Shown here one piece after another: positions 55,799 through 64,000 of a stretch of DNA of 64,000 nt. Made by a program: the position numbers and the translations under genes. Below the pieces are notes generated by a model. The model was not told where the DNA came from. It made no database searches and was given only the letters and a program-made list of their open reading frames with translations. Position 1 is the stretch's first letter, and every line of letters begins with the position of its first letter. Source of the stretch: an uncultured Planctomycetaceae bacterium (lineage in GTDB: Bacteria; Planctomycetota; Planctomycetia; Pirellulales; PNKZ01); assembly GCA_964387325.1 (NCBI GenBank), contig CAYLYE010000001.1:19453-83452 (forward strand), in the 5' to 3' direction.

Positions 55799-55826
55799 TC
55801 ATGAGGCCGAGGGGCTGGGGAGCAGA

Positions 55827-55869
55827 GGGGTGGAGGAGTAGCGCTAACGCGACAGCGCCACTCCTCCAC
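55827..55869. terminator. stem-loop between convergent genes
   Basis: GTGGAGGAGTAGCGC pairs with GCGCCACTCCTCCAC (14 bp with one A-C mismatch, 10-nt loop). There is no T-tract. Confidence 0.45.
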
Positions 55870-55897
55870 TCCTCCACTCCTCCACTCCTGCACTCCT
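55858..55897. repeat. 8-bp tandem repeat CCACTCCT x5
   Basis: The sequence reads ccactcct ccactcct ccactcct ccactcct gcactcct. The period is not a multiple of 3. The repeat abuts the dehydrogenase stop codon. Confidence 0.9.
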
Positions 55898-56841
55898 CAC
55901 CCCACCCGATACGCGAGCGGCTTCCCCTCCAGCCCAAGCAACAAATTCTCGACCGACATCTCGGCCATCTTCCGCCTCGTTTCGTTCGTGGCGCTTCCCA
56001 AGTGCGGCGCGATCACGACGTTGTCGAGCTTGAGCAGCGGATGATTTCTCGGCAACGGCTCAGGGTCGGTCACGTCGAGTCCCGCCGCGGCAATGCGTCG
56101 CACGGCCAGAGCGTCGGTCAGTGCCTGCGTATCGACCACGCCGCCGCGGGCGATGTTAATCAATGTGCCACTGCGTTTCATCTTGGCGAGCGCCGCGGCA
56201 TCGATCAGCCCGCGCGTGTCGGCCGTGAGCGGACAGCAGAGCATCACGTAGTCGCTTGTTGCGAGCAGATCATCGAACTCGGCGTAGCGCACGCCCAGGC
56301 TGGCTTCCAGGTCCTCGCGGCGACGGCGATTGTGATACAGCACGTTCATATCAAAGCCGCGAGCCCGCTTGGCCACCTGAGCCCCAATGCGTCCCAACCC
56401 CACGATGCCGAGCGTACTGCTGTGGACTTCGCTCCCCAGCATGTAGCCCGGATCGTAAACGGTGAACTGCGGCGACCGGGCGTAACGATCCCCTTCGACC
56501 AGTCGCCGCGCCGTGGCCAGCAGCAGCGTAAAGCCCATGTCGGCCGTCGCGCCGTCGAGAATGCCCGGCGTATTACCCACCGGCACGCCATGTGTCTTGG
56601 CAGCCGCGAGGTCGATATGATCCACGCCGACACCGTAATTGCTAATCACCCGCAACTTGGGCAGCTGCTTGAGCAGCGCGTCGCCGACGTGCGGATGTCC
56701 GTAGGTATACAGCGCCACGATCTCCTCGTTAGGCGCGTTCAAGGTCGCTTGCCACGGCCGCCACGCGACCCGGCCGGCCGTGAGTTGTTCGATAATCGGT
56801 GCCAGCGGCCCATCGGCCATCACGCAAGGGATTTTAGTCAT
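55897..56841 (-). CDS. D-isomer-specific 2-hydroxyacid dehydrogenase (glyoxylate/hydroxypyruvate reductase-like)
   Basis: 314 aa with the NAD-binding GIVGLGRIGAQVAKRA motif and the catalytic R...E...H pattern (INIARGGVVD..., APHLGSAT). Confidence 0.85.
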   Translation of the reverse strand: MTKIPCVMADGPLAPIIEQLTAGRVAWRPWQATLNAPNEEIVALYTYGHPHVGDALLKQLPKLRVISNYGVGVDHIDLAAAKTHGVPVGNTPGILDGATADMGFTLLLATARRLVEGDRYARSPQFTVYDPGYMLGSEVHSSTLGIVGLGRIGAQVAKRARGFDMNVLYHNRRRREDLEASLGVRYAEFDDLLATSDYVMLCCPLTADTRGLIDAAALAKMKRSGTLINIARGGVVDTQALTDALAVRRIAAAGLDVTDPEPLPRNHPLLKLDNVVIAPHLGSATNETRRKMAEMSVENLLLGLEGKPLAYRVG

Positions 56842-57036
56842 GGATGGTTAAGTCTTCGTTGAATAATGAATAAACGTGCGATTTAAAGAGTTTCGTCAAA
56901 AGTACCTCATTCTCCAAATCTGGCAGTGAGTGCTCAACCTGCGATTTCTAAACGTGACCTTCCATAATTGCCGTCAAGTAAACCTGGGCATATATTAGCC
57001 AGATCGGTTCTCGGAATTTGGTTGGAGGGCAATCTC

Positions 57037-57939
57037 ATGAGTCGATTTATTGCACGACTTCGAGCATTGGGGAATCTCATTTTTTCGGGAAAAGGAGTGT
57101 CACAAGAAATAAAATCCATTCCAGCTTCCTTCGTTCCACCGAATATTGAACCGCTAACGAAAATTGACGCCGCTGAAATACACTACGAGACGACACCTGT
57201 ATTAATTCACGGCATAGTTTCGCCAAGCAATCAAGGTGGTTGGCCGGGACAAAACGACGGTTATCAAATACATTGTTTCTCGTTTGCTGCGTGGAAAATA
57301 GTGAATGCGCCAATCGTAAATCGAGAGTTGATAGTTATTCGGCCGGTCCCCCCAAACGCAAATTACTTCGATGATTTTCCGGAACTCACCCTCCCGTGCC
57401 TCTCTGTATTCCTTTCGACGGACCATACTCGGGCTGTGTTTGAAAACGCTTTGCCAACGGACTCGACGGATGACGAGCTATTGGCTATCGCAAGTGAACT
57501 GAGAAAACCGGTGGTCGTCACGACAGAACAATTCGGAGATTTTATTTTAGACCGTCGAATCGGCTGGTTTAGCGGTCATGCTGAATGGAATGGCACTCGA
57601 GTCCGCATGCAATTTTTACCCGACGAGAATAAATCGATAGAGGCATCGATACGTACGGCAGAAGCACTGTGGGCTGATTCCTTGGCATGGAAACAGCGAA
57701 TCGATGCTTACGCCGCCGAAAAGCTTCTCAAAACAAAAAATGAATATTGGCTAAGCGATGGGGAACCGGAACTCAGCGAAAACGACTTCATTTCAAGGAT
57801 GAAGCTTGTAGATATCGGAGTTTCTTCGGGTGGTCGCTTCGAGTTCTGGCACGACGATGGGGAGATGTTTTGCGGCCATTCCATCCAGATTCGTGGAGAT
57901 ATCGTAAACGGTCCCAGCGATGCAGATATTCCAGGTTAG
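57037..57939 (+). CDS. hypothetical protein on a low-GC islet; C-terminal half DUF2262-like (immunity-protein-like)
   Basis: The ATG at 57037 is preceded by GGAGG (57024-57028, 8-nt spacing). The C-terminal half (FGDFILDRRIGWFSGHAEWNGTRVRMQF ... GGRFEFWHDDGEMFCGHSIQIRGD...DADIPG) matches my memory of the DUF2262 pattern. The listed ORF start is 56968. Confidence 0.6.
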   Translation: MSRFIARLRALGNLIFSGKGVSQEIKSIPASFVPPNIEPLTKIDAAEIHYETTPVLIHGIVSPSNQGGWPGQNDGYQIHCFSFAAWKIVNAPIVNRELIVIRPVPPNANYFDDFPELTLPCLSVFLSTDHTRAVFENALPTDSTDDELLAIASELRKPVVVTTEQFGDFILDRRIGWFSGHAEWNGTRVRMQFLPDENKSIEASIRTAEALWADSLAWKQRIDAYAAEKLLKTKNEYWLSDGEPELSENDFISRMKLVDIGVSSGGRFEFWHDDGEMFCGHSIQIRGDIVNGPSDADIPG

Positions 57940-58021
57940 ATGCCGTGGCCTTGGCTCGGCTCGACTCATCTGACATACTTGATGCGTCGAATTGGAACAG
58001 ATTGCTGGCGGAGTTCAACTC

Positions 58022-59380
58022 ATGCTACGGATCATCGGCGACCGCGCGGACAATTGCCAGGGGGTGACGCGAAGGAGCTTCGTGCAGGCCGGTACGCTCG
58101 GGCTCGGTGGCTTCGGTTTGAGCGACTGGTTCCGACTCCGCGAGGTCCAAGGGGCCGTCGACAAGCGGCGCGACACGAGCGTGATCCTGTTTTGGCTCAG
58201 CGGCGGCCCTGGGCACATGGAGACCTATGATCCCAAACCGGAAGCAGTCGATCAGTATCGTGGACCGTTCGGTGCCGTAAGTTCGGCCGTCAACGGTCTG
58301 CAAATGAGCGAGATGATTCCCGAGCAGGCCAAGATCATGGATCGGCTCGCCGTGTTGCGGACGGTCAATCATGGCAGCGGCGACCATACCAAAGGGAACC
58401 ACTGGATGCTCACGGGCTTTGAAGGCCCGAGCTTCAACGCGATCGATTTCAATGTGCAACGCCGGCCGTCGATGGGCTCGGTCGTCGCTAAACTCAAGGG
58501 GATGCAGTCGAGTGGCATGCCCCCGTATGTCGCGGTTCCTAATCTTCGCGGCGGCACCGATAACTTCTTCCACTACGCGGCCTACCTGGGAGCCGGTGCC
58601 AATCCGTTCAACGTCGAGAGCGATCCGAACACCAGCGAGTTCGCCGTCAAAAATCTGACACTGCAACCCGAGCTGTCGTTCGATCGCTTGGCCGACCGCC
58701 GTCGTGTGCTCGAAACGCTCGATCAGTTCCGCCGCGACAGCGAACGCTCGTTCGCCGATCGCGAGCAGCAATATCAACGGGCGTTCGACTTGCTCACCAG
58801 TCGCCAGGTGGCCGGCGCGTTCGATATCAACGCCGAGAGCGCCGCGACACGCGATCGTTACGGCCGGCACACGTTTGGTCAAAGCGCACTCCTGGCTCGC
58901 CGCATGGTCGAGGCCGGCGTCCCGTTTGTCACCGTCAACTGTGTCCCTTGGGATCATCACGGCACGGCGGGGCGACTGCGGACCGAAGAAGGCGCCAAGC
59001 TGCTCATTCCGCCGCTTGATCGAGCCATCGCGGCCTTGGTGACCGACCTGATCGATCGCGGGCTCTACGAGAAGACGCTCGTCGTGGCGATGGGGGAATT
59101 TGGTCGCACGCCGAAGATGAACGCCGAAGGGGGCCGTGACCACTGGGGACACACGTTCAGCGTGCTGATGGGCTGCGGCAGTATGCGCATGGGTCAGGCC
59201 ATCGGTCGTAGCGACGAGCGGGGCGAGTATGTGGCCGACCGACCGATCATGCCGCAGGACGTGACCTCGACCGTGTTCCATCACTTGGGCATTCGCGCCG
59301 AGCAGGTCTCGTTTGTCGATCGCGTCGGCCGCGCCCTGCCGCTCGTCGACCACGGCGCGCCGATCGCCGAGTTGCTATAG
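58022..59380 (+). CDS. DUF1501 domain-containing protein (second copy)
   Basis: I prefer the ATG at 58022, which gives MLRIIGDRADNCQGVTRRSFVQAGTLGLGGFGL (Tat-like). Signature blocks are SVILFWLSGGPGHMETYDPKP and MGEFGRTPKMNAEGGRDHW. Confidence 0.85.
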   Translation: MLRIIGDRADNCQGVTRRSFVQAGTLGLGGFGLSDWFRLREVQGAVDKRRDTSVILFWLSGGPGHMETYDPKPEAVDQYRGPFGAVSSAVNGLQMSEMIPEQAKIMDRLAVLRTVNHGSGDHTKGNHWMLTGFEGPSFNAIDFNVQRRPSMGSVVAKLKGMQSSGMPPYVAVPNLRGGTDNFFHYAAYLGAGANPFNVESDPNTSEFAVKNLTLQPELSFDRLADRRRVLETLDQFRRDSERSFADREQQYQRAFDLLTSRQVAGAFDINAESAATRDRYGRHTFGQSALLARRMVEAGVPFVTVNCVPWDHHGTAGRLRTEEGAKLLIPPLDRAIAALVTDLIDRGLYEKTLVVAMGEFGRTPKMNAEGGRDHWGHTFSVLMGCGSMRMGQAIGRSDERGEYVADRPIMPQDVTSTVFHHLGIRAEQVSFVDRVGRALPLVDHGAPIAELL

Positions 59381-59481: not shown

Positions 59482-59873
59482 GAACGTGAGTTTAGCGCGT
59501 CGTCATACGCCAACGGACGTGTACACCTTCGTCCCGCCGCGTGCCGTTGCCTGTTCGCCACGTCGCTACGCTCTGCCTGTTTACCCTAGGCGGCATGATG
59601 CGAAAAGTCACCGCAGTTCGGACTCCCGTGTCGGTTGCTGGCACGCTAAAACTTGAATTTTTTTGATTCGCCGCAAGTGGCCGCTCGGCAATCACTTGAG
59701 CCGGTTTCTCGCAAGGTCTCCGCGGATTTTCGTTTGCACAAGGCCCGTTGTTCAGACACATTTGCAGTAGGTGCTGTTGCGCGCATTTTCTGCGCTCAAC
59801 GTGCCTTTTCAGTGTGGGCTTCCCGAACTGGGTCGGCGAAGCGCGTGGACCCGAGAGCTGTGGAGTCACCTCG

Positions 59874-61259
59874 ATGCGGACAACTTTGCTGGCCACCTTG
59901 ATTTTGCTTGGCGGAGGCGCGGCCTCGGCCTGGGCTCAAGTCCCCTGCGCCTCGTGCGTGCAGGCTTATCGATTAAAGTGCGAAACCGTTTATGAAGAAC
60001 GGCAAGTCAACGCCTTCCGCGTCGACTACGAGACCGTCTACGACGAACGGCAGGTCACCACCTACCGACCCGTCTGGGAGACCGAGGTCCGTGAGCGCCG
60101 CTATCAAGTTGCTCGGCCGGTCTACGAGACCAGCGAGCGTGAAGAACGCTACACCGTACAAAAGCCGGTCTACGAGACCGTCGTCGAAGATCGCAGCTAT
60201 AACGTCGTGCGAAACGTCTACGAGACCAGCGAGCGCGAAGAGCGCTACACCGTACAAAAGCCGGTCTACGAGACCTATCAACAAGATCGTTCGTACACGG
60301 TTCGCCGCCCGGTCTATGAGACCAGCGAGCGTGAAGAGCACTGCACGGTCATGCAACCGGTGACCAGCTATCGACCCGTCCAGGTCGATCAAGGCAACTA
60401 CGTCGATCAGGTCGTCTGTCGGCCGGGCGCGGTCCATAACCGGCTCGCTTGGCAGCCCGCGGCTTGTGTGGTCGATCCGGCCACCGGAGTCACCGCGTAC
60501 AAGCCGGGCGGTTTGGCTTGGATGCCCGTGCAAGCTCCGCCCGTCACGCAGGTTTATCGTGCGTGGCAGCCGAATGTCGTTACGTACAACGTGCCGCAGG
60601 TCAGCTATGTGCCTCAGACGCAGGTTCGCAAGGTGCCGGTGCAAACCGTCCGCTGGGTCGATGAGCGCGTCGTGCAACAGGTCCCCGTGACCGTCTGCCG
60701 AATGGTTGCCGAAGAGCAGGTCCGCAAGGTGCCCGTGACTGTGTGTCGTCAGGTGGTCGAGCGGGTCGAGAACAAGGTCCCCGTCGAGGTTTGCAAGTAC
60801 GTGACCGAAGAGCAGGTCCGCAAGGTTCCGGTGACCGTGTGCCGCATGGTCTACGAAGAGAAGGTCGAGCAGACGCCTTATCGCGTCTGCAAGCAGGTGG
60901 CCGAGGTGCAGACGGTCAAGACGCCGCGCAGTGTCGAGAAGCGGACCCCCGTGACCTACACTTACAAAGTGCCACGGACGATCGTGTATCGCGTACCGGT
61001 CGACCCCTGTGGGAACGAGATTCCGGCGGCCGCAACGAGCCCGGCTCCGGCGGCGAGCACCACAGCCTCGCCCACTCCGGCGACGTCGAGCGCGCCGAGC
61101 GTCGGTGCCCCAACGACTCAACCGAGTTTGCCGACAGGTCCGACTGCGACCACCACGCAAAAGCCGGCCGAGTTGCCCGGGCCGGCCGCGCCGACTCCGG
61201 CCGCTCCAGTTCCTCCGGCCGCTCCCAAGGACGGCGCCGCCGAGAAGGCCAAGAGCTAG
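59874..61259 (+). CDS. YTV-repeat secreted protein with Pro/Ala/Thr-rich C-terminus
   Basis: I prefer the ATG at 59874, which gives a signal peptide (MRTTLLATLILLGGGAASAWAQ). It has repeated modules (VYETSEREERYTVQKPVYET...) and (EEQVRKVPVTVCRMV...), which correspond to the planctomycete 'YTV' repeat family as I recall it. Confidence 0.8.
   Translation: MRTTLLATLILLGGGAASAWAQVPCASCVQAYRLKCETVYEERQVNAFRVDYETVYDERQVTTYRPVWETEVRERRYQVARPVYETSEREERYTVQKPVYETVVEDRSYNVVRNVYETSEREERYTVQKPVYETYQQDRSYTVRRPVYETSEREEHCTVMQPVTSYRPVQVDQGNYVDQVVCRPGAVHNRLAWQPAACVVDPATGVTAYKPGGLAWMPVQAPPVTQVYRAWQPNVVTYNVPQVSYVPQTQVRKVPVQTVRWVDERVVQQVPVTVCRMVAEEQVRKVPVTVCRQVVERVENKVPVEVCKYVTEEQVRKVPVTVCRMVYEEKVEQTPYRVCKQVAEVQTVKTPRSVEKRTPVTYTYKVPRTIVYRVPVDPCGNEIPAAATSPAPAASTTASPTPATSSAPSVGAPTTQPSLPTGPTATTTQKPAELPGPAAPTPAAPVPPAAPKDGAAEKAKS
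60120..60407. repeat. three 96-bp in-frame tandem repeats inside the YTV gene
   Basis: Units start at 60120, 60216 and 60312 (gtctacgagaccagcgagcg.gaaga.c...). A second 96-bp periodicity links 60711 and 60807 (gaagagcaggtccgcaaggt.cc.gtgac.gtgtg). Confidence 0.85.
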
Positions 61260-61314: not shown

Positions 61315-61461
61315 CGGTTGAGCCAGCGCCGCGGGGTTCGGTTCGCACGTCTTGTGAGCCGGACCCCGCTTGGTTTCCTCCCCAAGTCGTCGACTTGGCA
61401 TTAGAATGGAACGCAAGTACGGCTCGTTCGAGCCGCTTTGCTCTCTCCGGAGTCGGACACG

Positions 61462-61683
61462 ATGCGCGATGGGGACCTGAGCCTGGTCAGCAGCTCGTTG
61501 CAGTACGCCTACAAAGTGCTGCGGCAGCGTTGGGACGACACCGAAGAGGTCTGGCGCGACGTGGTCCGCAAGCGGTTCGACGAACAGCACATCGAACCCA
61601 TCGAGCCCACGGTGCTCAACACACTCAAGGCGATCAACCGACTCTCGTCGGTCTTGGAACGTGCCCGCGAGGAGTGCTCGTGA
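61462..61683 (+). CDS. small (73-aa) all-helical protein, possible WXG100-like helical hairpin
   Basis: The ATG at 61462 has GGAG 9 nt upstream (the listed ORF uses TTG 61438). It has two predicted helices separated by PIEP. Its stop codon (TGA) overlaps the GTG of the downstream long ORF (GTGA). Confidence 0.6.
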   Translation: MRDGDLSLVSSSLQYAYKVLRQRWDDTEEVWRDVVRKRFDEQHIEPIEPTVLNTLKAINRLSSVLERAREECS

Positions 61684-64000
61684 AAGTCGACGGCCAGAGT
61701 GAACATCCGGTCCGCGCGCAAGAAGCGCTGCTGGAGCGGCTGACGCAGGCGGCGCAGACACGTGCGGCGGTGATCGCCAGCATCGACGGCGAACTGCAAG
61801 AGGCCAAGGTCGCGGCCCGCGACGCGCTGCAAGCGGCCACCGAGCGTGCCGAGGGGGCGCGACAACACGATCTGGCCGAGGCTCAACAATCGCGGCAACA
61901 ACGATTGCACCGGCTCCAGCAGCGTTACGAAGGGGACTACCGTGTCATGCAGCAGCGTTGGGGCGAGCGCCGCGACAAGATCAACGCCCGCGTCAATGCG
62001 ATCCGCGGCAAGGCCAAGCGCGACCTCAAGGAGAGCAGCCTCGACATCCAGAATGTGTTCGACGCCACCAAGCACCGCCCGCGACGCGAGTTTCAGGAGG
62101 CGCAGAAGCAAGTCGATCAGCGTGCCGCGCGGCTCGAAGCGATGGCCGAGGAAGCCAAGCATTTTCTGTTCGACTGTCGGCTGTTCCGTCCACCGCACGT
62201 CGACCCTGAAGTGCCTCGCCCCGCGAGCGAAGACGAGGCGCTGCAAACCTTTCTCGCCCGGCTCGCCGAGTCGGAAGCGAAGCTGGCCGAGCTGACGGCA
62301 CTCAAGTTGCCCCGGTTTTTTGCCGGCGGCACGCCCATCTGGGCCTACCTTGCCTTGTGGCTACTGCTCGCCTATCCGGCGGGTCATTTGCACGATTGGG
62401 ACTACGCCTACTTGGCCAGCAGCGGTGGCGCGGCGGTGGCGCTGGGGACGCTGCTGTGTGTCTGGCTCTACGCGATCGCCCGCCGCCACACGAGCGCGCG
62501 CTACGACACGCTCTGCCAGCAGTTGCTCGAAGCCGAACAGGCCAAGGCCCGCTGGCTCGAACTGGCCGTGCAGCGCTGTCAGCGTGAGACGACCGCGATC
62601 ATGCAGAAGTATCAGGCCGACATGGCCTCGGCCAAGTCACGATACGAGACAACCAAGACCGCCGCGATTGCCGAGCGCGATCAGCAATTGGCTGCGGCCG
62701 AGAATGAGTTCGGTCCGCCCGTCTCGCAGTTCGAGATGTACCACTCGCAGGAGTCGGTCGAGTTGGAAGAGGCGTTGCACGCCGCCGAGCGTCAGGCCGA
62801 CGAGGTCATGCAGCAAGCGTTGAGGTTGGCCCAACGGCAGCACGACGAGGCGCTCGCCGCCGCGAACGAAGCCGCGCGTCACAAGCACGCCGCCGCCGAC
62901 CAGGTCTGGCAACAAGCGTGGCAAGCCAGCCAGCAGTCGTCGGTCGCGATCGCCGAGCAGTGTCGGCAATGGTTCCCACCGTGGAAAGCCGAGTCCTGGC
63001 AGCAGTGGCCTCCGCCCAAGGACATTGCCCCAGTCATTCGCTTTGGTCAATTCGCGATCCGCAGCGAGCACGTAGCCGAGGATCTGCCCAAGCTCGACGA
63101 CAAGTCGCGGATCGTGCTGCCCGCGCTGCTCGAGTTCCCCGATCGTTGCTCGCTGATGATCCGCGCCGGCGGTGCGGGACGCGTTCACGCCGTCGATTTG
63201 CTCCAAGCCGTGATGATGCGGTTCCTCACGTCGATCCCGCCGGGCAAGGTGCGGTACACGATCGTCGATCCCGTCGGACTCGGCCAGAATTTCGCTGGCT
63301 TCATGCATCTGGCCGACTACGACGAACTGCTCGTGACGCACAAGATCTGGACCGAGCCGCAGCAAATCGAACAACGGCTCGCCGAGCTGTCGAGCCACAT
63401 GGCGAACGTGATTCAGAAGTATCTGCGTAATGAGTTCGAGACGATCGACGAGTACAATGTGCACGCAGGCGAGGTGGCCGAACCGTATCGCGTCGTGGTC
63501 GTGGCGAACTTCCCTTTTAACTTTACCGAGGCCGCGACGCGCCATCTGGTCAGCATCGCGACGACCGGCGCTCGCTGCGGCGTCTACACGCTGATTAGCA
63601 TCGACCCCAAGCTCCCTTTGCCGCACGGATTTCGTCCCTCGGACCTGGAACAAAGCTGCATCAAGCTCGTGTGGCGCGAGAACGGCTTTGCCCGCAAGGA
63701 CGACACGTTCGAGCGTTTTCCGTTGCTCGTCGATGGTCCGCCCGAGGGAGAGCTCTTCTCACAAATCGTGCACCAAGTGGGCGAGGCGGCCAAGGACGCC
63801 AACCGAGTCGAAGTGCCGTTCGAGTTCATCGCTCCGGCCGAGGCCCGCTGGTGGACGCACGACAGCCGCGGCGGGGTCGACATTCCGCTCGGCCGCGCCG
63901 GCGCCACCAAGCGACAGCACTTACAGCTAGGACGCGGCACCAGCCAGCACGTGCTCATCGCCGGCAAGACGGGCTCGGGCAAGTCGACCTTGCTGCACGC
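61680..64000 (+). CDS. FtsK/SpoIIIE-family multi-domain membrane ATPase (EssC/EccC-like architecture), 3'-truncated by the window edge; absent from the supplied ORF track
   Basis: My hand translation shows the frame with codon starts at positions divisible by 3 is open from 61278 to the window end. I verified codon boundaries at lines 62041, 62581, 63061, 63421, 63901 and 63961. Candidate starts are GTG 61680 and GTG 61674. Two TM helices lie at about 62334-62480. The canonical Walker A, GKTGSGKST, is at 63963-63989 in the context LGRGTSQHVLIAGKTGSGKSTLLH. Confidence 0.85.
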   Translation, partial: MKVDGQSEHPVRAQEALLERLTQAAQTRAAVIASIDGELQEAKVAARDALQAATERAEGARQHDLAEAQQSRQQRLHRLQQRYEGDYRVMQQRWGERRDKINARVNAIRGKAKRDLKESSLDIQNVFDATKHRPRREFQEAQKQVDQRAARLEAMAEEAKHFLFDCRLFRPPHVDPEVPRPASEDEALQTFLARLAESEAKLAELTALKLPRFFAGGTPIWAYLALWLLLAYPAGHLHDWDYAYLASSGGAAVALGTLLCVWLYAIARRHTSARYDTLCQQLLEAEQAKARWLELAVQRCQRETTAIMQKYQADMASAKSRYETTKTAAIAERDQQLAAAENEFGPPVSQFEMYHSQESVELEEALHAAERQADEVMQQALRLAQRQHDEALAAANEAARHKHAAADQVWQQAWQASQQSSVAIAEQCRQWFPPWKAESWQQWPPPKDIAPVIRFGQFAIRSEHVAEDLPKLDDKSRIVLPALLEFPDRCSLMIRAGGAGRVHAVDLLQAVMMRFLTSIPPGKVRYTIVDPVGLGQNFAGFMHLADYDELLVTHKIWTEPQQIEQRLAELSSHMANVIQKYLRNEFETIDEYNVHAGEVAEPYRVVVVANFPFNFTEAATRHLVSIATTGARCGVYTLISIDPKLPLPHGFRPSDLEQSCIKLVWRENGFARKDDTFERFPLLVDGPPEGELFSQIVHQVGEAAKDANRVEVPFEFIAPAEARWWTHDSRGGVDIPLGRAGATKRQHLQLGRGTSQHVLIAGKTGSGKSTLLH

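What the first reader, a model, noticed from the sequence alone, without database searches (positions are those of the whole stretch)
61680..63989. Unusual domain architecture of the FtsK-like protein: coiled coil, TM hairpin, coiled coil, degenerate P-loop domain, then canonical P-loop domain
These are my hand-translated segments. Residues ~1-215 are Q/R/E/A-rich heptad-like sequence (e.g. RQHDLAEAQQSRQQRLHRLQQRYEGDY). Two hydrophobic helices follow: PIWAYLALWLLLAYPAG (about 62334-62390) and SSGGAAVALGTLLCVWLYAIA (about 62418-62480). A second ~170-aa coiled-coil-like stretch comes next. Then there is a domain with an FtsK-like layout whose Walker A position reads RAGGAGRV (63160-63183) and whose Walker B-like strand reads YRVVVVANFP (63486-63515), so it appears catalytically degenerate. 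Finally comes LGRGTSQHVLIAGKTGSGKSTLLH (Walker A at 63963-63989). A degenerate ATPase-like domain preceding active ones is known from EccC/EssC, but the coiled-coil N-terminus, in place of FHA domains or a simple TM pair, is not something I recognise.
Basis: partly seen in the sequence, partly recalled or inferred. Interest (0 to 1): 0.7.

Follow-up and report, generated by a model that had tools for sequence, protein, structure and literature searches.

The report
Membrane-anchored EssC-like secretion ATPase, planctomycete type
This is the first 773 codons of a roughly 1,300-residue membrane-anchored ATPase related to the motor of type VII protein secretion; the family is very common in Planctomycetes and its main features are already in the literature, so it is an uncharacterised but not a new kind of gene.

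Summary
ORF 61680 to the window end (773 codons, no stop) encodes a helical arm (residues 1-212), two hydrophobic helices (213-268), a 163-residue helix continuous with TM2, a degenerate P-loop domain D0 (446-725) and the start of a canonical FtsK/EssC domain D1.

Three corrections:
- The helices have 11/3 (hendecad) periodicity, not heptads.
- RAGGAGRV lies at 63162-63185.
- Full-length homologues (~1,300 aa) have only one active domain, followed by a second degenerate one.

The architecture is not rare. There are 1,156 clusters at E<1e-30 and at least 569 genome loci; the 80 best are almost all labelled Planctomycetota. In 56 of 71 informative loci the gene ends a four-gene cassette: WXG100, a ~200-aa helical protein, a ~73-aa WXG100-like hairpin, then the ATPase.

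The window keeps only the 73-aa gene (61462-61683), which overlaps the ATPase start.

The literature already describes this family: three domains with only the middle one active, a WXG partner, planctomycetes listed (Zhang 2012), and an N-terminal coiled coil over 200 aa in soluble relatives (Bell 2024).

What I did not find described is the TM hairpin embedded in the stalk and the strictly conserved stalk length. The function, probably T7SS-like export, is inferred.

The parts
61331..61369 (+). Terminator-like hairpin (17-bp stem, then a T-rich tail) between the upstream YTV-repeat gene and the small gene. It marks the likely start of a separate two-gene operon.
61462..61683 (+). 73-aa WXG100-like helical hairpin protein, with W31-x-D33 at the turn in place of WxG. 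Its TGA stop overlaps the GTG start of the ATPase (GTGA).
   Evidence: Conserved directly upstream of the ATPase in related loci. hhalign to the loci's own WXG100 family: 85.6%, E 5.6e-6. Profile against PDB: best hit S. aureus EsxA, E 0.002. AF2 pLDDT 92.6, helices 3-30, 34-44 and 47-72. The top 24 Foldseek hits are all WXG100-type proteins (EsxB TM 0.81, HP0062), though E-values are only 0.3-1.3. No Pfam hit.
61680..64000 (+). 5' 773 codons of the EssC/EccC-like three-domain ATPase gene; it runs off the window end. GTG start, with GAGGAG five bases upstream.
61680..62315 (+). N-terminal cytoplasmic helical arm, residues 1-212, rich in A/R/E/Q with 11-residue periodicity. AF2 helices 10-130, 133-165 and 184-206. 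The break at 131-132 lies at the partly conserved VFDATKxRP motif.
62316..62483 (+). Transmembrane hairpin, residues 213-268. TM1 is ~218-238 and TM2 ~244-268, joined by a very short outside loop (~5 residues between the AF2 helices, within the 12-residue HLHDWDYAYLAS stretch between the hydrophobic cores). Positive residues lie on both cytoplasmic flanks.
62484..62972 (+). Stalk helix, residues 269-431, continuous with TM2 in the model, hendecad periodicity. Its length is 163 aa in 54 of 105 homologues. A possible kink lies at the F-G-P-P of residues 344-347.
62973..63017 (+). W/P-rich linker FPPWKAESWQQWPPP, residues 432-446. F432, P433, W435, W443 and P446 are invariant among the six closest sequences.
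63015..63854 (+). D0, a degenerate FtsK/EssC-type P-loop domain, residues 446-725. The Walker-A-like RAGGAGRV is at 63162-63185 and the Walker-B-like YRVVVVANFP at 63486-63515. It is much better conserved than the helical arms (0.60 mean column conservation against about 0.27).
63855..63998 (+). Start of D1, the only canonical ATPase domain, residues 726-773. Walker A GKTGSGKST is at 63963-63989. The rest of D1 (Walker B VDEF) and the degenerate D2 lie beyond the window.

Best explanation
The ORF is the 5' 60% of a ~1,300-aa inner-membrane-anchored ATPase. [quoted passage not shown] That sub-family travels with WXG100-type hairpin proteins.

Shown here:
- Both termini of the TM hairpin face the same side of the membrane. 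That side must be the cytoplasm, because the ATPase domains follow it.
- A ~210-aa helical arm precedes the hairpin, and a 163-aa helix continuous with TM2 follows it. Both have 11-residue periodicity.
- D0 has the FtsK fold but lacks the Walker Lys and the acidic residues.
- D1 is canonical and D2 is degenerate.
- A WXG100-like 73-aa gene overlaps the ATPase start by four bases (GTGA), so the two may be translationally coupled.

Inferred:
- The protein forms a ring, as FtsK/EssC relatives do, driven by ATP hydrolysis in D1 alone.
- D0 and D2 act as scaffold, regulator or substrate-receptor modules, as DUF and D3 do in EccC.
- The arm and the stalk pair antiparallel into a rigid spacer of roughly 20-25 nm with a fixed length.
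- The machine exports the WXG100-type hairpins, and perhaps the ~200-aa helical partner, across the cytoplasmic membrane. It would then be a minimal stand-alone T7SS-like module.

In this genome the canonical WXG100 gene and the ~200-aa gene are not found anywhere in the 61.4 kb of window upstream of the small gene (downstream was not readable), and a YTV-repeat gene lies where they sit in related loci.
For: - Identity: Pfam FtsK_SpoIIIE above threshold. NCBIfam EssC/EccCa/EccCb at 1e-25 to 1e-32, far better than FtsK. PDB hits are EccC, EccC5 and YukB.
- D0 fold: Foldseek to EccC/EssC/FtsK/TcpA, probability 1.00; hhalign D0~D2 E 3.5e-9 and D2~D1 E 2.8e-11.
- Motif status in 105 homologues.
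- TM hairpin conserved in all 105. AF2 pLDDT 84.
- Cassette WXG100-mid-small-ATPase in 56 of 71 informative loci, with unrelated flanks.
- The small protein is WXG100-like.
- The ATPase is the only cassette protein with a hydrophobic segment.
- Literature describes the same family (PMC3482391; PMC11090510).
Against: - No secretion has been shown for any member.
- Planctomycetes are diderm, and the cassette carries no other membrane or outer-membrane component. No EccB/D/E or EsaA/EssA/EssB homologue is visible in the called genes.
- Soluble relatives have the same D0-D1-D2 and a WXG100 partner but no TM segment. They sit next to CARF, vWA, PP2C and kinase genes (Caballeronia plasmid) or a TerD gene (Rhodococcus plasmid), so the core module does not need a membrane (PMC11090510).
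- NCBIfam EssC/EccC scores are far below the curated cut-offs (107 against 778 bits).
- The window's own copy may be interrupted just past the window.
Confidence: 0.6

Rival explanations
1. A membrane-tethered NTPase of a conflict, defence or stress module rather than a secretion pump. In this reading the WXG100-type hairpins and the ~200-aa helical protein are cytoplasmic partners, adaptors or effectors that the ring remodels or releases. The long coiled coil would be an interaction platform, as proposed for the CoCoNuT-associated homologues.
For: - Plasmid relatives match the family HMM over D0, D1 and D2 (E 1e-105 and 1e-150). They have no hydrophobic segment.
- One (Caballeronia) lies between vWA genes, next to CARF, PP2C and Ser/Thr kinase genes; the other (Rhodococcus) lies near a TerD gene.
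- PMC11090510 describes exactly this arrangement and notes the lack of TM helices.
- No outer-membrane conduit or accessory membrane protein is present in the planctomycete cassette.
Against: - In planctomycetes the cassette is flanked by unrelated housekeeping-type genes, not defence genes.
- The TM hairpin is conserved in all 105 homologues. This argues that membrane insertion is part of the function.
- PADLOC gives only generic FtsK/HerA-domain hits on D1.
Confidence: 0.27
2. A DNA translocase of the FtsK/SpoIIIE type, acting in chromosome segregation at division or in conjugative DNA transfer.
For: - A Pfam FtsK_SpoIIIE hit.
- FtsK motor domains are among the Foldseek hits.
- The usual database name is 'FtsK/SpoIIIE domain-containing protein'.
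Against: - The NCBIfam FtsK equivalog scores only E 2e-3, against 1e-31 for EssC.
- There are three tandem domains with one active, as in T7SS-type ATPases.
- There are two TM helices, not the four typical of FtsK (my own knowledge).
- The gene is tightly linked to WXG100 genes.
- No match to a C-terminal DNA-recognition (gamma) domain in Pfam.
Confidence: 0.04
3. In this particular genome the gene is a decaying remnant or an assembly-broken copy, interrupted shortly after the window end, in a locus that has already lost the WXG100 and ~200-aa partner genes.
For: - The 144-kb source contig that carries the window's own 73-aa protein also has on record a 408-aa product. It starts at the internal Met that equals residue 891 of the 1,298-aa homologue.
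- No full-length or N-terminal product of the window's own gene is in the protein collection; the best hit is 94% identical.
- WXG100 and mid genes are absent from the whole window.
Against: - 773 codons are open, with all conserved motifs intact.
- The 94%-identical relatives with the same reduced locus carry an intact 1,298-aa gene.
- The 408-aa record could reflect a gap or a single sequencing error.
- This reading does not conflict with the family-level explanation.
Confidence: 0.25

Closest known systems
Three-domain YueA/EssC-like ATPase with solo WXG100 ('mobile version of T7SS'; Zhang et al. 2012, Biol Direct 7:18, Table 1 footnote 6, PMC3482391)
   Same: Three FtsK/HerA domains with only the middle one active. 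Adjacent stand-alone WXG100 genes. Planctomycetes are explicitly listed as carriers.
   Different: The footnote gives no N-terminal architecture. The TM hairpin, the two ~160-210-aa hendecad helices and the fixed stalk length are not mentioned there.
EssC-like ATPase of Type III-A CoCoNuT extensions (Bell et al. 2024, eLife, PMC11090510)
   Same: Three ATPase domains with only the central one active. [quoted passage not shown] Two WXG100 proteins, one without WxG. A coiled-coil partner protein. The Caballeronia plasmid relative found here has that context.
   Different: Those proteins lack TM helices and sit between vWA genes in defence loci, and their coiled-coil partner carries a D-ExK nuclease domain. 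The planctomycete form has a TM hairpin inside the helical region, a short partner (~190-217 aa in the four aligned loci) of helices plus a Pro/Ala-rich tail in which no nuclease domain was detected, and unrelated flanks.
EccC (T7SSa) and EssC/YukB (T7SSb) secretion ATPases
   Same: Membrane anchor of two TM helices. A helical stalk leading into a degenerate membrane-proximal P-loop domain (DUF), then an active D1. Linkage to WXG100 substrates. They are the best sequence and structure matches.
   Different: EccC/EssC have DUF plus three further domains, with nucleotide-binding D2/D3. EssC has N-terminal FHA domains. Both need accessory membrane proteins (EccB/D/E or EsaA/EssA/EssB), which are absent here. 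The stalk here is about 160 residues long and is preceded by a second helical arm. Scores fall far below the NCBIfam cut-offs.
FtsK/SpoIIIE DNA translocases
   Same: RecA-type motor fold of D1. Pfam PF01580.
   Different: FtsK has a single motor domain, a gamma DNA-recognition domain and no WXG partners. Similarity is much weaker.

Membership tests
FtsK/SpoIIIE P-loop domain (Pfam PF01580) | Match to the family HMM above Pfam's gathering score | tested here: met
   Window fragment: 36.6 bits against a cut-off of 24, on residues 727-773. Full-length homologues: 116-124 bits.
FtsK/SpoIIIE P-loop domain (Pfam PF01580) | Canonical Walker A GxxGxGK[ST] and Walker B hhhhDE | tested here: met
   D1 has GKTGSGKST (in the window) and VDEF (in homologues), conserved in at least 90% of 105 sequences at nearly every motif position. 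D0 and D2 do not meet this.
T7SS ATPase EssC/EccC | Score above the NCBIfam equivalog cut-offs (TIGR03928, TIGR03924, TIGR03925) | tested here: not met
   107.5 against 778.4 bits, 98.4 against 509, and 89.3 against 347.
T7SS ATPase EssC/EccC | N-terminal TM anchor followed by a degenerate membrane-proximal P-loop (DUF) domain, then an active D1 | tested here: met
   TM hairpin. D0 degenerate with the FtsK fold. D1 canonical.
T7SS ATPase EssC/EccC | Four P-loop-type domains (DUF, D1, D2, D3) | tested here: not met
   Only three domains in the ~1,300-aa homologues: D0, D1 and D2.
T7SS ATPase EssC/EccC | Genomic linkage to WXG100 substrates | tested here: met
   56 of 71 related loci have a Pfam/NCBIfam-type WXG100 gene upstream. 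The window itself has only the divergent WXG100-like 73-aa gene.
T7SS ATPase EssC/EccC | Accessory core membrane components (EccB/D/E/MycP or EsaA/EssA/EssB) in the locus | tested here: not met
   None among the called genes of four cassettes. The other three cassette proteins have no hydrophobic segment.
T7SS ATPase EssC/EccC | ATP-dependent export of WXG100 proteins | not testable with these tools
   Needs genetics and a secretome analysis.
Three-domain, middle-active YueA/EssC-like ATPase with solo WXG (Zhang 2012; Bell 2024) | Three FtsK/HerA domains, only the central one with intact Walker motifs | tested here: met
Three-domain, middle-active YueA/EssC-like ATPase with solo WXG (Zhang 2012; Bell 2024) | Operon with two WXG100-type proteins, one lacking WxG, and a coiled-coil partner | tested here: met
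   Met in related loci. In the window only the non-canonical hairpin gene is present.
Three-domain, middle-active YueA/EssC-like ATPase with solo WXG (Zhang 2012; Bell 2024) | Long N-terminal coiled coil (over 200 aa) and no TM helices, as in the CoCoNuT-associated form | tested here: inconclusive
   A long helical N-terminus is present. A TM hairpin is also present, unlike the described soluble form.

The most novel reading that the evidence does not exclude
The planctomycete form may be a distinct, phylum-wide, single-membrane-component T7SS-like machine. A two-helix hendecad stalk of essentially invariant length (163 residues in half of the homologues despite ~28% sequence conservation) would act as a rigid spacer or ruler. 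It would hold the ATPase ring some 20 nm from the cytoplasmic membrane, or couple it to a specific envelope structure of these diderm bacteria. That arrangement is not described for any T7SS.
Probability: 0.25. Interest if true: 0.7.

Novelty: new member of a known kind. Interest (0 to 1): 0.35.

Why it matters
The family is large: 1,156 clusters at 50% identity below E 1e-30, and at least 569 loci among species-representative genomes, the 80 best almost all labelled Planctomycetota. It is completely uncharacterised experimentally.

It pairs a T7SS-type motor with WXG100-type hairpins in diderm bacteria, which are not normally credited with type VII secretion. It has no visible accessory membrane proteins.

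If it exports proteins, it would be the simplest T7SS-like device known and a tractable model for how the EssC/EccC motor works on its own. If it does not, it shows that the WXG100 and three-domain ATPase module has a non-secretory role, as its soluble defence-island relatives suggest.

For this window specifically, the result is mainly a better annotation of an 'FtsK/SpoIIIE domain-containing protein' and of a 73-aa hypothetical gene.

Tried and rejected
- Heptad coiled coil: Fourier power at period 3.5 is not above shuffles. Replaced by the hendecad periodicity.
- Direct D0 against D1 profile comparison: not significant (E 0.14), although it aligns in the correct Walker-B register. Homology was established only through D2.
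- Single-sequence search of D0 against PDB: nothing meaningful.
- First homologue search with the whole fragment: only 5 hits, because low-complexity words filled the candidate list. The D0-only search returned only short fragments.
- Covariation of arm and stalk lengths, as a test of pairing: uninformative, because both lengths hardly vary.
- Look-ups of the window's own products to read beyond the window end found no record.
- PADLOC: only generic FtsK/HerA-domain hits (SspH, mad8) on D1; no defence-system assignment.
- The mid protein has no Pfam or PDB relative. Its similarity to the Caballeronia coiled-coil-nuclease protein is only suggestive (E 0.001, probability 21%).
- The small protein shows no similarity to the Caballeronia 76-aa protein.
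- Anantharaman et al. 2012 (PMC4104200) could not be read.
Full report
**1. What is in the sequence**

From GTG 61680 the + frame is open to the end of the window: 773 codons with no stop. The start has GAGGAG five bases upstream. It overlaps by four bases (GTGA) the stop of a 73-codon gene at 61462-61683.

A 17-bp-stem, terminator-like hairpin at 61331-61369 separates this pair from the preceding gene. That gene is a YTV-repeat protein (59748-61259). Upstream of it lies a DUF1501 protein (57992-59380). I take both to be planctomycete hallmarks (from my own knowledge), and the 94%-identical relative has the same neighbours.

Only RAGGAGRV is displaced, by 2 nt, to 63162-63185.

**2. Anatomy**

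- *Composition.* Residues 1-212 and 273-445 are rich in Ala, Arg, Glu and Gln.
- *Hydrophobic segments.* Two stand out: 213-231 (KD 1.58) and 249-267 (KD 1.87). They are joined by a short loop and flanked by basic residues on both sides. Because the ATPase domains must be cytoplasmic, both ends of the hairpin are cytoplasmic and only a short loop faces outward.
- *Conservation of the hairpin.* All 105 full-length homologues have a hydrophobic block at the same position, ~55-60 aa in most, usually much more hydrophobic (up to 3.3).
- *AlphaFold2.* With a 57-sequence alignment, mean pLDDT is 84 and pTM 0.59. Helices are 10-130, 133-165, 184-206 and 218-238 (TM1). One uninterrupted helix runs 244-431 (TM2 plus the whole second helical region), followed by an alpha/beta domain.
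- *Periodicity.* The helical parts are not heptad repeats. Hydrophobicity power at 3.5 residues is at shuffle level. The 11/3 period is significant in the window protein (p=0.004 for the arm and 0.0004 for the stalk, 5,000 shuffles). It dominates the family-averaged spectrum at 6.3-6.7 times shuffle, with smaller peaks at 11/5 in both regions and at 11/4 in the stalk.
- *Stalk length.* The stalk is 163 residues in 54 of 105 homologues (IQR 163-165), although mean column conservation there is only 0.28.
- *Inference, not shown.* The arm helices 10-165 and the stalk 269-431 have nearly equal length.

**3. The degenerate domain**

- *Pfam.* It sees only the canonical domain: residues 727-773 in the window, and roughly 725-925 in homologues.
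- *NCBIfam.* It gives a weak EssC match on residues 507-641.
- *Foldseek.* The model aligns about 290-370 columns to EccC ATPases 2/3, EssC D2-D3, the EccC cytoplasmic domain, FtsK motor domains, the ESX-3 core-complex chain 6sgx_F, the B. subtilis YukB chain of the 'core unit + DUF' entry 9qks, and TcpA. Probability is 1.00 and E is 1.6e-7 to about 1e-3.
- *Profile comparison.* The family's own domains give D2~D1 97% (E 2.8e-11) and D0~D2 96% (E 3.5e-9), with the Walker-A positions in register. D0~D1 directly is not significant.
- *Motifs across 105 homologues.* The D0 'Walker A' is L-L-h-x-A-x-[GD]-x-G-R. R is present in 90 sequences and K in only 5, and no Ser/Thr follows. The 'Walker B' is hhhhA[N/D]FP, without a catalytic Glu.
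- *Conservation.* D0 is nevertheless well conserved (0.60 against 0.27 for the arms). It is therefore functional but not catalytic.

**4. What lies beyond the window**

Homologues are single ORFs of 1,298-1,313 aa. D1 carries GKTGSGKST and VDEF in essentially all members. The third domain reads GQQxEAALG and LFIY[G/D] and is degenerate. The layout is therefore degenerate, active, degenerate. It is not 'degenerate then active ones'.

**5. How common is it**

- A full HMMER scan with the 773-aa fragment of 1.84 billion cluster representatives gives 2,847 hits below 1e-3 and 1,156 below 1e-30. Most of the top 150 align over most of residues ~15-773 at 32-46% identity, and most have lengths near 1,300.
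- A scan of species-representative genomes found at least 569 loci. The best 80 are, with three exceptions (two MAGs labelled Alcaligenaceae, one unclassified), labelled Planctomycetota: Pirellulales, Gemmataceae, Isosphaeraceae, Thermoguttaceae, Planctomycetaceae, Phycisphaerae and Kuenenia. Singulisphaera has two copies.
- The architecture is the norm for a large family, not a peculiarity of this window.

**6. Genomic context**

- In four distant loci the gene ends a four-gene cassette: WXG100 (90 aa; Pfam PF06013), a ~190-217-aa helical protein, a ~70-75-aa protein, then the ATPase. Flanks are unrelated from locus to locus.
- Using HMMs of the three small proteins on 88 loci, 71 had a complete N-terminus and at least 1.5 kb upstream. 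Of these, 56 have the full cassette, 10 have none of the three genes, 4 have only the small gene (including the window and its 94% relative), and 1 has mid plus small.
- The window contains no WXG100 or mid gene anywhere.
- The ATPase is the only cassette protein with a hydrophobic segment.

**7. The 73-aa protein**

It has no Pfam hit. Four lines of evidence point to a divergent WXG100-type hairpin:

- Its family profile matches the loci's own WXG100 family (hhalign 85.6%, E 5.6e-6).
- Its best PDB profile hit is S. aureus EsxA (E 0.002, full length).
- AF2 gives a confident helix-turn-helix (pLDDT 92.6).
- The top 24 Foldseek hits are all WXG100-type proteins: HP0062, EsxB (TM 0.81, rmsd 1.7), EsxA/B, EsxEF and CFP-10/ESAT-6. 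E-values are only 0.3-1.3, as usual for short hairpins.

The turn motif is W-x-D (W31 and D33 invariant). The 90-aa WXG100 proteins of these loci have the same motif (SWRDQE). I conclude that it is a divergent WXG100 paralogue, plausibly the heterodimer partner of the 90-aa protein.

**8. Comparison with the known**

- *Sequence.* The protein is closest to T7SS ATPases: EssC 4e-31, EccCa 5e-28, EccCb 2e-25, against FtsK 2e-3. It is far below the curated equivalog cut-offs.
- *Differences from EssC/EccC.* It has three rather than four P-loop-type domains, one active site, no FHA domains, no accessory membrane proteins, and a very long bipartite helical region.
- *Zhang et al. 2012* (PMC3482391, Table 1 footnote 6). 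[quoted passage not shown] - *Bell et al. 2024* (PMC11090510). [quoted passage not shown] They note that these lack TM helices. They cite Anantharaman et al. [quoted passage not shown]
- *Soluble relatives found here.* One is on a Caballeronia plasmid: vWA, WXG100, 436 aa, 113 aa, 76 aa, ATPase of 927 aa, CARF, vWA, PP2C, kinase. Another is on a Rhodococcus plasmid. Both match the family HMM across D0, D1 and D2 but have no hydrophobic segment.
I did not find described the TM hairpin embedded in the helical region, or the invariant stalk length, of the planctomycete stand-alone form. The T7SS-variant survey of Gram-positives does not cover it, and literature searches for T7SS with Planctomycetes returned nothing further.

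**9. Mechanism**

The best-supported reading is an inner-membrane-anchored, ring-forming ATPase powered by D1 alone. D0 and D2 would serve as scaffold, regulator or substrate-receptor modules. The machine would handle WXG100-type hairpins, most likely exporting them across the cytoplasmic membrane.

- *Shown.* The domain folds and motif states, the conserved hairpin, the operon linkage, and the four-base GTGA start/stop overlap that would allow translational coupling.
- *Inferred from family knowledge.* Oligomerisation, the substrate role of the WXG proteins, export, and arm-stalk pairing.
- *Main rival.* The module is not a secretion device but a membrane-tethered version of a conflict or stress NTPase. 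Support comes from the soluble relatives in defence-type loci and from the lack of any other membrane or outer-membrane component in a diderm host.
- *DNA translocase.* This reading is unlikely.

**10. Caveat on this copy**

The 144-kb source contig that carries the window's own 73-aa protein also has a 408-aa product on record. It begins at the internal Met that equals residue 891 of the homologue. No full-length or N-terminal product of the window's gene is in the collection. The gene may therefore be interrupted within about 350 nt after the window end, by a frameshift, a stop, a gap or a sequencing error. I could not read that DNA. Close relatives with the same reduced locus have an intact gene.

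**11. Verdict**

The interpretation as an EssC/EccC-like protein with a degenerate membrane-proximal domain is right. The claim of an unusual architecture is not: this is a typical member of a very large, already noted but experimentally untouched family. Interest is moderate to low for the window itself. It is somewhat higher for the family, because of the hendecad stalk of fixed length and the open question of what a one-component T7SS-like module does in diderm bacteria.

Noticed in passing
beyond window end (source contig); The 144,094-nt source contig has a 408-aa product on record that starts at the internal Met equal to residue 891 of the 1,298-aa homologue. No full-length product of the window's own gene is in the protein collection. 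The gene may be interrupted just past position 64000.
   Followed up: partly
window 59748-61259 (+): A 503-codon ORF with five YTV repeats (Pfam PF07639, 1.9e-38), a hydrophobic N-terminal stretch and a Pro/Ala/Thr-rich C-terminus. It occupies the place where related loci carry the WXG100 and ~200-aa genes. The real start is probably downstream of TTG 59748.
   Followed up: partly
window 56001-58000: GC drops to 0.54 against about 0.62 elsewhere. The dip covers a DUF2262-containing ORF (56968-57939) and lies next to a 353-aa ORF with no family match (55801-56862). This may be an acquired segment.
   Followed up: no
L004, L089, L090 (94% relatives): In three independent assemblies the contig ends 5-168 nt after the stop of the ATPase gene. 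This suggests a repeat or a hard-to-assemble element immediately downstream.
   Followed up: no
L001, L005, L007, L008 WXG100 genes; L091, L092: The C-terminus of the 90-aa WXG100 proteins is nearly invariant (PFLLRKAERIEEYLxQR). A similar [DE]xYL tail recurs in the Caballeronia (LRDYLQS) and Rhodococcus (LDQYLGR) partners, so it is a candidate recognition signal. The small proteins mostly end in [DE]C[SEG]. The mid proteins carry a conserved Cys pair (CQL...P.CS).
   Followed up: partly
one search hits P0057, P0058, P0073, P0077: Some metagenomic fragments with the D0-like domain carry WD40/beta-propeller Pfam hits. Others are labelled Chloroflexi or Anaerolineae. The D0-D1-D2 core may therefore be fused to other N-terminal modules outside Planctomycetes.
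   Followed up: no
L041, L052, L054, L056, L057, L060, L062, L064 (Kuenenia and Planctomycetaceae MAGs): A subgroup of ~1,385-1,440-aa homologues aligns by tblastn only from residue ~135-200 onward. Where enough upstream sequence is available (L041, L054, L056, L062), none of the three small genes is detectable. This may be a divergent N-terminus with different or missing partners.
   Followed up: partly
L011 and L087 (Singulisphaera sp. Ch08 chromosome): Two paralogous copies of the ATPase lie in one complete genome. One has the full cassette; the other has only the mid and small genes.
   Followed up: no
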